Assembly: GCA_000004985.1 (NCBI GenBank)
Contig: GG739362.1
DNA from: Naegleria gruberi
Taxonomy: Eukaryota
Direction: 5' to 3' (one strand)
Length of the DNA stretch: 1,636 nt
Made by a program: the position numbers and the translations under genes. This document shows positions 1-1,636 of the stretch, piece by piece (the first letter of the stretch is position 1; each line of letters starts with the position of its first letter). The notes under the pieces are model-generated. The model ran no database searches and was not told the origin of the DNA. It saw nothing but the letters and a program-made list of their open reading frames with translations.

Positions 1-1035
1 GACTTGATTCAAGAAATAAAGAATGTTGAATTTATTGACAGAATGCCAAAACCAGATTCAATATTTCTGGTTACTACTAATCAAAAGGATGATGAAGGAA
101 AACCAAGTATAATTTCTGACCTTGCTTTTGGCACACATCCATCCTCTTGGAAAACATTCGTACCACGAGTTGTCAAAGGTTACTCCTTTGGTACTCACAA
201 AACTTTAGAGTGTCGTGGTGTTTCCTATTGTACAACATGTAACAAAGGTGCTGAAGATGGTGAAGTTTACACTAAGAAATTCACCTTTTGTAGGAAGATG
301 GAGCCCATTACAGGCAAAGTGTGTAATACCAAGCTAGTGAAGTTGGGTGAGAAGTGTATGCATAGGGTAAGATGGTACAAAACAGCACCAGACGAAGGTG
401 GAAACATGATGAATCTGGTCATGTTTGAAAAGGCACATGCTCACAATACTGTTATTACAGGTAAATTCACCAAGAAGGCGGAACAACTAATTGAAGAACA
501 TGTGAAGAAGAACCCCAGAGTGAAAGCTTCACAATTAAAGAAAAGACGTTCTACAAATCTAGTTGCGAAAGATTGCTCTGCACTATTGAACAATGATGCG
601 GTAGCATCATTGGTAAGGAAGAAGAAGGATAAGCATTACGGGCAGAACAGGTTCAAGGATATGCCAGACCTTGCTAACGCCCTAACCGAGTCGTACCAAA
701 AAGAGCACAAAGATGATAAAAGAACCGTGCTTGGTACCATTACAAGGGAATTGGGGGTCTCAATTTATTTGAGAAAGTTTGGCAGTGTGAAAACATTTTT
801 GAAATGGTGGAAAGCAAGAATTGATATTCTAATCAATCCAAACGTGCGTGTAACTACTAATAACATCGCAGAATCGAACAATGCGCTGATTAGAATAGTG
901 ATAGAAGATGCTAATTTGTCAATTGAATTCAAAAACAGTTTTGAAGTTGATGTTTTAACCTTCGATTTGTTACTTTCTAAACAAGCGGGGTACTTCTTGG
1001 AGACTCAGCAACAAACAAGCGTTGTTAAACCGTAA
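1..1035 (+). CDS. 5'-partial ORF, probably the C-terminal part of a Mutator-like (MULE)/IS256-superfamily transposase-derived protein. It has a putative FAR1/WRKY-type zinc finger and a catalytic-E signature. The frame is open to the left window edge; the first in-frame ATG is at 43.
   Basis: There is an uninterrupted frame +1 of 345 codons with no stop from nt 1; the track lists it from the TTG at 4. Codon usage is yeast-like. A Cys/His pattern C96-x10-C107-x37-H145-x-H147 (nt 289-444) sits in a 'F.C...GkvC..klv....RWyk....f...HaHN' context that resembles the FAR1/WRKY-GCM1 zinc finger. The motif T-T-N-N-I-A-E-S-N-N-A-L-I-R (nt 853-894) fits the Mutator/IS256 consensus TxNxAESxNxxI[KR] around the catalytic glutamate. 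The ORF ends at TAA 1033-1035. Confidence 0.55.
   Translation, partial: DLIQEIKNVEFIDRMPKPDSIFLVTTNQKDDEGKPSIISDLAFGTHPSSWKTFVPRVVKGYSFGTHKTLECRGVSYCTTCNKGAEDGEVYTKKFTFCRKMEPITGKVCNTKLVKLGEKCMHRVRWYKTAPDEGGNMMNLVMFEKAHAHNTVITGKFTKKAEQLIEEHVKKNPRVKASQLKKRRSTNLVAKDCSALLNNDAVASLVRKKKDKHYGQNRFKDMPDLANALTESYQKEHKDDKRTVLGTITRELGVSIYLRKFGSVKTFLKWWKARIDILINPNVRVTTNNIAESNNALIRIVIEDANLSIEFKNSFEVDVLTFDLLLSKQAGYFLETQQQTSVVKP
289..444 (+). other. Putative FAR1/WRKY-GCM1-type C2H2-like zinc-finger DNA-binding module inside the frame +1 ORF
   Basis: Translation reads YTKKFTFC(96)RKMEPITGKVC(107)NTKLVKLGEKCMHRVRWYK...NLVMFEKAH(145)AH(147)N. It has a C-x10-C spacing followed by HxH, with a conserved-looking Trp/aromatic between the two ligand pairs. 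Confidence 0.35.
853..894 (+). other. Mutator/IS256-superfamily transposase signature around the putative catalytic glutamate (TTNNIAESNNALIR)
   Basis: The sequence act act aat aac atc gca gaa tcg aac aat gcg ctg att aga translates to TTNNIAESNNALIR. It is compared by eye to the TxNxAESxNxxI[KR] / 'TTNxIESxNxxIRR' motifs of MURA-like and IS256-like transposases. Confidence 0.4.
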
Positions 1036-1507
1036 AAAGTGGGCATACAACAATGACGGAGTGCCAAACTTAAACCAGGTGGATGAAGTTGGTGGTGAAA
1101 GTGTGGAAATTAATAATGATGAGGATTATTGTGAAAATAATAATGCTGTGGATGAGGATGAAGTGGATGATGAAGTGGATGATGAAGTAGATGAAGTAGA
1201 TGAAGAAGTGGATAATAATAGTGAGAATGATGATGAAGAGGAGGAAGGTGAGGAAGATGGGGATTATGTTGAAGAAGAGGAGGAAGAAAGAAGAAAGAAG
1301 AAAACAAAAGTTACTAAAAAGAAATGGAAGAATGTAACAAGAAGAAAGCAGGAGAAGAAAAATGAAGAAGAGGAAGGTGAAAGTAAAAATGAGAAGACAA
1401 AAATAAGTCATTTTAGAAGATGGAATGAAGATGTGAAGAGTTTAGGGAGTAAAAGAAAGAGGAATGTAGTAGATTATAAAAAGACTAATGGTGATGATAG
1501 TGAATAA
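1022..1507 (+). CDS. Frame +2 ORF with no ATG at all. It encodes an acidic (DEV)n/poly-Glu tract followed by a Lys/Arg-rich NLS-like tail. It is most likely the downstream, post-frameshift part of the preceding gene (a frameshift at the CCG-TAA-A stop would make effective coding start at 1034).
   Basis: Frame +2 is open from 959 to TGA 1505-1507. The translation contains no Met; the track's 'M' is a TTG. It overlaps the frame +1 ORF by 14 nt as listed, or 77 nt of mutually open frame. Composition is strongly biased: D/E 1151-1290, K/R 1289-1470. An AATAAA overlaps the stop and AT-rich 3' signals follow, which suggests a genuine gene 3' end. Confidence 0.45.
   Translation: MLNRKKWAYNNDGVPNLNQVDEVGGESVEINNDEDYCENNNAVDEDEVDDEVDDEVDEVDEEVDNNSENDDEEEEGEEDGDYVEEEEEERRKKKTKVTKKKWKNVTRRKQEKKNEEEEGESKNEKTKISHFRRWNEDVKSLGSKRKRNVVDYKKTNGDDSE
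1151..1213 (+). repeat. Imperfect in-frame tandem repeat (GAT GAR GTR)n, about 7 units of 9 nt. It encodes DEDEVDDEVDDEVDEVDEEVD.
   Basis: The unit is seen directly: gatgaggat gaagtggat gatgaagtggat gatgaagtagat gaagtagat gaagaagtggat. Confidence 0.65.
1225..1400 (+). repeat. Long polypurine (GAA/GAG/AAG-rich) low-complexity tract on the + strand. It encodes poly-Glu then a Lys/Arg-rich stretch, and includes a (GAA)n-like microsatellite at about 1266-1300.
   Basis: The + strand is almost purely purine across this span. The complementary pyrimidine strand produces the spurious F/L/I/P/H-rich minus-strand ORFs (1070-1411 and 1110-1307). Confidence 0.55.
1289..1330 (+). other. NLS-like basic cluster RRKKKTKVTKKKWK; a second basic patch KRKR lies near 1450-1470
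   Basis: This is the direct translation of frame +2. Clusters of at least 4 K/R in a row are typical of classical monopartite or bipartite nuclear localisation signals. Confidence 0.35.
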
Positions 1508-1600
1508 AGGGAAATATTATTTAATGGTTTCATCAGTTCTTGTTTAATACAACAAGAATAATAAAATGCTACAATTAAAGTATAAAAAATTTGTAAAAAT
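1503..1600 (+). promoter_or_regulatory. Putative yeast-type mRNA 3'-end formation region. AATAAA overlaps the TGA stop, followed by an A/T-rich tract with TATAAAAAA and AATAATAAAA elements.
   Basis: tgAATAAAg lies at 1503-1509, aataataaaa at about 1557-1566 and tataaaaaa at about 1581-1589. These match the efficiency/positioning-element style of budding-yeast 3' UTRs. This is a sequence-based guess only. Confidence 0.3.
1537..1558. other. Perfect 8-bp inverted repeat (ttcttgtt / aacaagaa) with a 6-nt loop (taatac). It is a potential stem-loop in the 3' UTR.
   Basis: Seen directly: 1537-1544 ttcttgtt, loop 1545-1550, and 1551-1558 aacaagaa is the exact reverse complement. Confidence 0.45.
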
Positions 1601-1636
1601 GCTAAAACTTCTCCAAGAATCGAACACGCGCTGTTG

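What the first reader, a model, noticed from the sequence alone, without database searches (positions are those of the whole stretch)
445..852. Unusually short, atypical segment between the zinc finger and the catalytic-E motif, suggesting an eroded or reorganised catalytic core
Canonical Mutator/IS256 cores place the second Asp roughly 100 or more residues before the E motif. The first Asp is roughly 60-70 residues before that, each at the end of a hydrophobic beta-strand. Here only about 135 aa separate the HxH of the zinc finger from the TTNN motif. That stretch is highly charged (KKRR, RKKKDKH, KEHKDDKR) and has no obvious hydrophobic-strand-Asp motifs. This points to a domesticated or inactivated transposase, or a novel architecture, rather than a standard autonomous element.
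Basis: inference. Interest (0 to 1): 0.5.

Follow-up and report, generated by a model that had tools for sequence, protein, structure and literature searches.

The report
Internally deleted Mutator-like transposase gene copy
The short stretch exists because this copy of a Mutator-like "jumping gene" enzyme has lost about 206 amino acids, including two of its three catalytic residues, so it is an ordinary broken transposon copy and not a new kind of enzyme.

Summary
Only 136 residues (nt 445-852) separate the zinc-finger HxH from the TTNNIAES motif. The stretch is basic (K+R 22.8%) and has no conserved strand-Asp motif.

The cause is a single clean gap. The window's only detectable relative is metagenome contig L001, about 30% identical. 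It is collinear with the window on both sides of nt 780|784 but carries 206 extra residues there. Those residues hold LFNID, FSVDF and GCHFHY. With WW and TNNIAES they give D-76-D-129-E, close to the validated Muta1 triad (D214/D283/E419).

With the E motif excluded, this extra segment is homologous to a Pfam-validated MULE domain (BLASTP E 2e-6; z=8.2 against shuffles). No trace of it remains in any frame of the window.

The window also has a frameshift near nt 993. After it, homology continues only in frame +2.

Best reading: a recent internal-deletion, frameshifted copy of a divergent, probably eukaryotic, Mutator-like transposase gene. It keeps the DNA-binding domain, the linker and the C-terminal end of the catalytic domain, and it cannot catalyse transposition.

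"Inactivated" is supported. "Domesticated" and "novel or reorganised architecture" are not. Pfam does not recognise either family member, so superfamily membership rests on a chain of homology plus motifs. Interest is low.

The parts
1..1035 (+). Frame +1 ORF of 344 codons, cut by the window's 5' edge, ending at TAA 1033-1035. By alignment, its start lies about 13 residues after the relative's Met.
   Evidence: P(344 open codons) is about 1e-13.
211..444 (+). Cys/His cluster conserved with the relative: C71, C77, C80, C97, C108, C119, W125, H146, H148. The last part, C-x10-C-x26-HxH, has the pattern of a WRKY-GCM1/FLYWCH/FAR1-type DNA-binding zinc finger.
   Evidence: The invariant columns are, and the alignment with P0002 is (E 2e-12). 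Pfam FAR1 hits the equivalent region of the relative only weakly (E 0.03-0.18, below cutoff). The class is described for MULE transposases in PMC1702500.
445..780 (+). Linker between the zinc finger and the catalytic domain (aa 149-260), homologous to L001 fused aa 149-256. Shared patches are I-T..T, E..VK.NP, K.K.YG.N...P, VLG and YLR.F. It holds the basic patches KKRR and RKKKDKH, which may be nuclear localisation signals (inference).
   Evidence: tblastn matches L001f aa 42-256 to window nt 100-780 at E 3e-17.
781..783 (+). Deletion junction (codon GGC, Gly261). The relative has 206 residues here (L001 fused aa 257-462). These are the MULE-type core with D289, D365 and C403xxH406.
   Evidence: No remnant of the core is found in any of the six frames of the window (best E 0.92).
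784..993 (+). Retained C-terminal end of the catalytic domain. It holds WW (nt 805-810, the counterpart of the conserved Trp upstream of the catalytic Glu), TTNNIAESNN (nt 853-882) with the presumed catalytic Glu291 (nt 871-873), and the segment that follows.
   Evidence: tblastn matches L001f aa 464-534 to window nt 784-993 at E 2e-11, 38% identity. The roles of Muta1 W401 and E419 are given in PMC5225508.
992..994 (+). Frameshift. Homology to the relative passes from frame +1 (..AGY) to frame +2 (TSWRL..). This is consistent with a 2-nt loss in TAC[AC]TTCT (inference) or a sequencing error.
   Evidence: For L001's tail against frame +2, SW z=6.15 with 0/2000 shuffles. Frames +1 and +3 give z below 1. 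See also the alignment.
992..1507 (+). Frame +2 continuation of the protein. It has the conserved Y-N-NDGVPN (YVNDGIPD in the relative), then an acidic and a basic low-complexity tail with a 12-nt tandem repeat (1157-1213). The stop is TAA 1505-1507.
   Evidence: P(165 open codons) is about 6e-8.
1508..1636 (+). AT-rich 3' non-coding stretch (AATAAA at 1560-1565). No terminal inverted repeat is recognisable inside the window.

Best explanation
The window holds a defective copy of a transposase gene from a divergent, probably eukaryotic, Mutator-like (MULE) transposon.

The ancestral protein had four parts: an N-terminal Cys/His DNA-binding finger, a linker, a DDE catalytic domain with CxxH and a conserved Trp, and a charged C-terminal tail.

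In this copy one in-frame internal deletion of about 620 nt, at nt 780|784, removed the whole first two-thirds of the catalytic domain. That segment carried both Asp and the CxxH. The last ~30 residues before the catalytic Glu and everything downstream were kept. A second small lesion near nt 993 shifts the frame.

Any product could still bind DNA but could not cut or join it. The copy could move only if it retains its ends and a full-length relative supplies transposase in trans.

Shown here: the collinearity, the position and content of the gap, the frameshift, and homology of the missing block to a MULE domain.

Inferred: the direction of the event (loss rather than gain), the eukaryotic host, the origin by abortive gap repair after excision (as known for Ac/Ds, P and MuDR deletion derivatives), and any residual DNA-binding or repressor activity.
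For: The only real relative among 1.84 billion representatives is P0002. Its contig L001 carries the finger ORF followed by a 393-codon ORF.

The window is collinear with this fused protein. L001f aa 42-256 matches nt 100-780 (E 3e-17) and aa 464-534 matches nt 784-993 (E 2e-11). A single 206-residue gap lies between them.

The gap in L001 holds LFNID, FSVDF and GCHFHY. With WW and TNNIAES this gives D289-76-D365-129-E494. The mutagenesis-validated Muta1 residues are D214/D283/E419, H307 and W401 (PMC5225508).

The 206-residue block, with the E motif excluded, matches L047:1510-1797 at BLASTP E 2e-6. The SW score is 66 against shuffles of 27.8±4.6 (z 8.2, 0/1000), with D2 and CxxH in register.

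That L047 piece passes Pfam MULE PF10551 (33 bits against a cutoff of 27.6).

No remnant of the block is found in any frame of the window.

The frameshift is supported by z 6.15 in frame +2 only.

Both reading-frame segments are far longer than chance allows (1e-13 and 6e-8), so the damage is recent.
Against: There is only one relative, at about 30% identity. No near-identical full-length sibling was available, so the deletion is inferred across a large evolutionary distance. Its exact breakpoints and any microhomology cannot be seen.

Pfam MULE and Transposase_mut do not hit the window or L001, even as sub-sequences. An HMM of grass MULEs scores L001's core no better than shuffles. hhalign finds only the E motif, which was used to select the references. 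Automatic multiple alignment does not place D1 and D2 in the reference columns.

L001 itself has a frame break at nt 838-841.

The deletion is in frame and both ORF pieces are intact, which also fits a product that is still used.

Terminal repeats, target-site duplications and copy number could not be examined. The source organism is unknown.
Confidence: 0.75

Rival explanations
1. The short protein is functional. It could be a domesticated DNA-binding factor. It could also be a transposon-encoded truncated regulator, analogous to the P-element KP repressor, that binds the element's ends and damps transposition.
For: The deletion is in frame. The finger's Cys/His ligands are all intact. 344 plus 165 codons remain open. 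The linker is unusually basic compared with the relative.
Against: The frameshift near nt 993 separates the body from its conserved C-terminal tail. No protein with this short architecture was found in 1.84 billion representatives or in the 5.8-billion word search. Known domesticated MULE genes (FAR1/FHY3, MUSTANG) retain the core domain (prior knowledge). Long ORFs are equally expected for a young dead copy.
Confidence: 0.1
2. The gap is not a genomic deletion. Either the window is a spliced transcript or cDNA in which the DD-coding block was removed as an intron or skipped exon, or it is an assembly chimera that joins two copies.
For: The window starts about 13 residues after where the relative's start codon aligns and ends after an AATAAA, which resembles a transcript. 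The junction is exactly in frame. The 206-residue block in L001 begins with GTAATT.
Against: In L001 the block is uninterrupted coding sequence. No AG lies near its 3' boundary at nt 1650-1685, so it is not a canonical intron there. There is no poly(A) tail in the window. The additional frameshift is not explained by splicing. Read-level data cannot be checked with these tools.
Confidence: 0.1
3. The short form is the original architecture, and L001 gained its 206 residues by insertion. On this view the window shows a new finger-plus-E-motif protein family with no DDE fold.
For: With only two sequences, the direction of an indel is formally undetermined.
Against: The extra block is homologous to a Pfam-validated MULE domain, independently of the E motif. 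Together with the retained WW and TNNIAES it completes a DDE/CxxH/W signature at canonical spacing (PMC5225508). An E-motif helix without the rest of the RNase-H-like fold has no known function.
Confidence: 0.03

Closest known systems
Mutator-like element (MULE) transposases, e.g. Muta1 of Aedes aegypti, MURA of maize MuDR and Hop of Fusarium, and their bacterial cousins of the IS256 family
   Same: The order of parts matches: an N-terminal Cys/His finger ending in HxH, then a DDE domain with CxxH after the second Asp, a conserved Trp about 20 residues before the Glu, and a T-N-N-x-x-E-S-x-N Glu motif. The full-length relative's spacing (76 and 129) is close to Muta1's (69 and 136) (PMC5225508). 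The relative's core is homologous to a Pfam-validated MULE domain.
   Different: The window itself lacks D1, D2 and CxxH. Neither the window nor its relative reaches any Pfam MULE or Transposase_mut score. There is no SWIM finger. The finger has four additional conserved Cys upstream. The tail is acidic then basic and low-complexity. Only one relative exists in the databases searched.
Internal-deletion (non-autonomous) derivatives of cut-and-paste transposons: Ds from Ac, dSpm, deleted MuDR copies, and KP and other deleted P elements
   Same: A single internal block of the transposase gene is missing while both flanks stay collinear with the full-length form. The reading frame is otherwise nearly intact, as in young derivatives.
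   Different: The parent copy, terminal inverted repeats, target-site duplication and copy number are not available here. The comparison is to a 30%-identical relative, not to the autonomous sibling.
Domesticated MULE-derived genes (FAR1/FHY3, MUSTANG)
   Same: They share a WRKY-GCM1/FAR1-type finger at the N terminus. A weak Pfam FAR1 signal is seen in the relative's finger (E 0.03).
   Different: Those genes keep the whole MULE core and a SWIM finger, and they are conserved single-copy genes. Here the core is deleted, the frame is broken, and no orthologues of the short form were found.

Membership tests
Mutator/MULE transposase superfamily | A complete D-D-E triad: D1 and D2 about 60-80 residues apart, and D2 and E about 100-140 apart | tested here: not met
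   The window has only the Glu motif (E291). D1 and D2 are absent and no remnant is found in any frame. In the relative L001 the candidate triad is D289/D365/E494 (76 and 129), against Muta1 D214/D283/E419 (PMC5225508). D2 is supported by pairwise alignment. D1 is supported by motif only.
Mutator/MULE transposase superfamily | A CxxH motif between D2 and E | tested here: not met
   It is absent from the window. In L001 it is present (C403xxH406) and aligned to the CxxH of L047, of grass MULEs and of an IS256-type protein.
Mutator/MULE transposase superfamily | A conserved Trp about 20 residues upstream of the catalytic Glu, and the T-N-N-x-x-E-S-x-N motif | tested here: met
   The window has W269/W270 and TTNNIAESNN. 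L001 has W471/W472 and TNNIAESMN. The same motif occurs in Pfam-confirmed grass MULEs and IS256. Muta1 W401 lies 18 residues before E419 (PMC5225508).
Mutator/MULE transposase superfamily | A match to the curated profiles PF10551 (MULE) or PF00872 (Transposase_mut) | tested here: not met
   There is no hit for the window, for L001's 393-aa ORF or for sub-sequences, at E up to 10. The control references hit strongly.
Mutator/MULE transposase superfamily | Significant homology of the catalytic core to a bona fide MULE domain | tested here: met
   This was met for the relative, not for the window. The L001 block that the window lacks matches L047:1510-1797 at BLASTP E 2e-6, with z 8.2 and 0/1000 shuffles. 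L047 passes PF10551. Against the IS256-type L065, z is 3.8 (4/1000). The HMM of grass MULEs and hhalign gave no support.
Mutator/MULE transposase superfamily | An N-terminal WRKY-GCM1 / FLYWCH / FAR1-type zinc finger | tested here: inconclusive
   The C-x10-C-x26-HxH pattern is conserved with the relative. Pfam FAR1 is sub-threshold (E 0.03-0.18). Both AlphaFold runs were too poor to test the fold (pLDDT 31 and 37).
Mutator/MULE transposase superfamily | Long terminal inverted repeats and 8-11 bp target-site duplications | not testable with these tools
   The window does not reach the element's ends, and the source genome was not found.
Non-autonomous internal-deletion derivative | Collinear with a full-length element on both sides of one gap | tested here: met
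   The comparison is with a 30%-identical relative, not with the true parent.
Non-autonomous internal-deletion derivative | Retains functional ends and coexists with autonomous copies in the same genome | not testable with these tools
   No flanks and no source genome are available.
Domesticated MULE-derived gene (FAR1/FHY3/MUSTANG type) | An intact ORF with the MULE core retained, conserved orthologues and purifying selection | tested here: not met
   The core is deleted and the frame is broken. No orthologue of the short form was found. dN/dS cannot be computed with a single 30%-identical relative.

The most novel reading that the evidence does not exclude
The finger-plus-linker-plus-E-motif protein is still made and is selected for. 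It would be a catalytically dead DNA-binding derivative, either a repressor of its own transposon family or a newly co-opted factor. It would come from a deep MULE lineage that current profile libraries do not recognise.
Probability: 0.1. Interest if true: 0.4.

Novelty: new member of a known kind. Interest (0 to 1): 0.15.

Why it matters
It matters little beyond annotation. The case shows that an apparently "reorganised" transposase core is a plain deletion once a full-length relative is found.

It also flags a very sparsely sampled Mutator-like lineage: one relative among 1.84 billion representative proteins, and invisible to Pfam MULE and Transposase_mut. That lineage could be added to transposon libraries.

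If the source genome is known, this copy and its siblings would be routine material for dating a transposon burst.

Tried and rejected
Profile libraries and solved structures
- Pfam, PHROGs and NCBIfam on the window protein gave nothing meaningful.
- PDB sequence searches with the window and with L001's ORF gave nothing.

Protein and DNA database searches
- Three word-indexed searches of 5.8 billion proteins were run, with the window, P0002 and alignment A1. They returned no new relatives.
- phmmer against 1.84 billion representatives gave one real hit (P0002) and one spurious tandem-repeat protein, P0001.
- tblastn against the phage collection gave no match.
- Viral contig scans gave only chance matches in phage structural proteins.
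- The first metagenome scan chose poor patterns and found nothing.
- My own E-motif pattern pulled 120 loci. None is a close relative, but they supplied Pfam-confirmed MULE and IS256 references.
- Genome scans found no exact match to the window. A degenerate pattern gave three chance hits in Chitinophaga.
- Four exact-product look-ups for the window's possible gene calls all failed.

Structure prediction
- AlphaFold on the 344-aa product gave pLDDT 31. On the finger region with a 2-row alignment it gave pLDDT 37. Neither is usable, so no fold search was run.

Remote-homology tests
- hhalign of A1 against a MULE/IS256 alignment matched only the E motif.
- An HMM of grass MULEs scored L001's core no better than shuffles.
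- An automatic multiple alignment aligned only the CxxH.

Other checks
- DNA alignment at the frameshift was too diverged to define the indel.
- Rfam gave only a sub-threshold chance hit.
- The project accession of L001 was not found in the paper library.

Full report
**What is in the window.** Frame +1 is open from nt 1 to a TAA at 1033-1035 (344 codons). Frame +2 is open from about nt 1010 to a TAA at 1505-1507. The DNA is 37% G+C and purine-rich on this strand.

HAH is aa 146-148 (nt 436-444) and TTNNIAES is aa 285-292 (nt 853-876). So nt 445-852 encodes 136 residues, with KKRR, RKKKDKH and KEHKDDKR present.

K+R is 22.8% in this stretch, against 15.5% upstream. The eight Asp residues mostly follow polar or charged residues. 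Two (D191, D238) are matched in the relative, but they lie in the linker, not in a catalytic position.

**No library recognises the protein.** Pfam, PHROGs, NCBIfam and the PDB sequences give nothing meaningful. The Mutator assignment was therefore an untested assumption.

The word-indexed search of 5.8 billion proteins found nothing. phmmer against 1.84 billion representatives found two proteins. P0001 is a 51-residue tandem-repeat protein and is spurious. P0002 (184 aa) aligns to window aa 34-172, which is the Cys/His region and the helix after it (E 2e-12).

**The relative.** P0002 lies on a 2016-bp ENA metagenome contig, L001. There it starts at an ATG after AT-rich DNA. After a frame break at nt 838-841 it is followed by a 393-codon ORF that runs off the contig.

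This second ORF reads, in order:
- LFNIDSAYD
- GFSVDFSIAQ
- QGCHFHYFQN
- TSWWRNRLVILI
- LTNNIAESMNNQLRR
- YVNDGIPD near its end

In the fused protein the candidate catalytic residues are D289, D365, C403xxH406, W471/W472 and E494, giving D-76-D-129-E. In Muta1, the MULE in which these residues were tested by mutagenesis, they are D214, D283, H307, W401 and E419 (PMC5225508).

**The gap.** The window aligns to the fused L001 protein in two collinear blocks. L001 aa 42-256 matches nt 100-780 (E 3e-17). L001 aa 464-534 matches nt 784-993 (E 2e-11, 38% identity). One codon lies between the blocks in the window. In L001 there are 206 residues.

The finding's interval therefore has three parts:
- the normal finger-to-core linker (nt 445-780)
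- a junction (nt 781-783)
- the last ~23 residues before the Glu motif (nt 784-852), which include the conserved WW

Searching the 206-residue block against all six frames of the window finds nothing (best E 0.92). The core is absent. It is not frameshifted or scrambled.

**Is the missing block a Mutator-type core?** Several direct tests failed:
- Pfam does not hit L001's ORF or sub-sequences of it.
- hhalign of the two-sequence family against a reference alignment matches only the E motif.
- An HMM of grass MULEs scores the block no better than shuffles.
- An automatic multiple alignment lines up only the CxxH.

The references came from a metagenome scan with a pattern built on the family's own E motif. 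They were mostly grass MuDR-like transposases, plus one IS256-type protein (L065) and one decayed animal-type element (L047). Pfam confirms them as MULE, Transposase_mut and SWIM. Because they were selected through the E motif, that motif was excluded from the next test.

The 206-residue block alone matches L047:1510-1797 with BLASTP E 2e-6. The Smith-Waterman score is 66 against 27.8±4.6 for 1000 shuffles (z 8.2, none reaching it). VDF aligns with CDF at the second Asp, and QGCHFHY aligns with QGCLWHY. That L047 segment passes the Pfam MULE gathering score (33 against 27.6 bits). Against the IS256-type protein the block gives z 3.8 (4/1000), with the CxxH in register.

The link is therefore a chain: window to L001, L001 core to L047, and L047 to Pfam MULE. 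The motif and spacing signature adds to it. D2, CxxH, W and E are supported by alignment. D1 is supported by motif only.

**The finger.** Nine positions are invariant between the two proteins: C71, C77, C80, C97, C108, C119, W125, H146 and H148. The C-terminal part (C-x10-C-x26-HxH) has the pattern of the WRKY-GCM1/FLYWCH/FAR1 fingers. Babu et al. describe these as the DNA-binding domains of MULE transposases (PMC1702500).

Pfam FAR1 matches the equivalent region of the relative only below threshold (E 0.03-0.18). Both structure predictions were too poor to test the fold. The finger class remains inconclusive.

**A second lesion.** After nt ~993 the similarity to L001's tail (TTSCRL...YVNDGIPD) continues only in frame +2 (TSWRL...YNNDGVPN). 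Frame +2 gives z 6.15 with 0/2000 shuffles. Frames +1 and +3 give z below 1.

The local sequence GGG TAC TTC TTG would read GYTSWRL if two bases were restored after TAC. That is an inference, and a sequencing error is equally possible. Frame +2 then stays open through an acidic and a basic low-complexity tail.

**Age and direction.** 344 and 165 open codons have probabilities of about 1e-13 and 6e-8 at this composition. The copy was coding until recently, or it still is.

The extra block in L001 is homologous to a MULE domain, and it completes a canonical DDE/CxxH/W signature with segments the window still has. Loss in the window is therefore far more parsimonious than gain in L001.

**Mechanism.** The copy most likely arose as deletion derivatives of cut-and-paste elements usually do, by interrupted repair of the gap left after excision. 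This is established for Ac/Ds, P and MuDR. It is inferred here and cannot be tested without the parent copy.

The product lacks both Asp and the CxxH and cannot catalyse strand cleavage or transfer. It keeps the DNA-binding finger and basic patches that may serve as nuclear localisation signals. It could in principle compete for the element's ends. That is speculation, and the frameshift argues against a maintained function.

**Rivals.** Three alternatives were considered:
- A functional truncated protein (domesticated factor or repressor) is not excluded. However, no orthologue of the short form exists in the databases searched, and known domesticated MULE genes keep the core.
- A splicing or assembly artefact cannot be tested without reads. 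In L001 the block is continuous coding sequence without an AG at its 3' boundary.
- An ancestral short architecture is contradicted by the homology of the block.

**Limits.** There is only one relative, at about 30% identity, and it has its own frame break. The source genome is unknown. No flanks, terminal repeats, target-site duplications or copy number could be examined. The window's sequence was not found in the genome or viral collections or in the gene-position index.

**Verdict.** This is an ordinary internally deleted, frameshifted copy from a rarely sampled Mutator-like lineage: a new member of a known kind, of low interest.

Noticed in passing
window 992-994 and 1033-1035: There is a frameshift relative to the homologue. 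Similarity passes from frame +1 to frame +2 at about nt 993, and frame +1 then ends at a TAA 13 codons later. The sequence is compatible with a 2-nt loss in TAC[AC]TTCT or with a sequencing error.
   Followed up: yes
window 1100-1500: The frame +2 tail is acidic and then basic low-complexity sequence. It includes a 12-nt tandem repeat GATGAAGTGGAT (about 5 copies, nt 1157-1213) and a very strong G-over-C skew. It stays open for 165 codons. Whether the full-length family shares this tail is unknown, because L001 ends at its contig edge.
   Followed up: partly
L001 838-841: The only relative also has a frame break (…AAT CTT TGA / TTG ACA…) between the finger ORF and the catalytic ORF, at a different place from the window's frameshift. 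It could be decay, a sequencing error in a T run, or programmed frameshifting. These were not distinguished.
   Followed up: partly
L001 105-175: Upstream of the start codon there are direct and inverted copies of AAAAGTCGAG / CTCGACTTTT. These are possible subterminal transposase-binding repeats of the element.
   Followed up: no
The homologous linker of the relative has 10% K+R and is net acidic. Only the K.K.YG.N patch is shared.
   Followed up: partly
window 825-835 and 887-897: A perfect 11-nt inverted repeat (TATTCTAATCA / TGATTAGAATA) brackets the TTNNIAES-coding segment. It is probably chance in AT-rich DNA.
   Followed up: no
L047 634-2244: This metagenome contig carries a decayed MULE with a FLYWCH-like finger, a DGT-type first Asp in another frame, in-frame stops, a Pfam MULE hit and TNNIAES. 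It is the closest recognisable MULE to the window's family among the loci fetched.
   Followed up: partly
window 1503-1508 and 1560-1565: AATAAA hexamers lie over and downstream of the frame +2 stop codon. This is consistent with a eukaryotic polyadenylation signal, but such hexamers are expected by chance in DNA this AT-rich.
   Followed up: no
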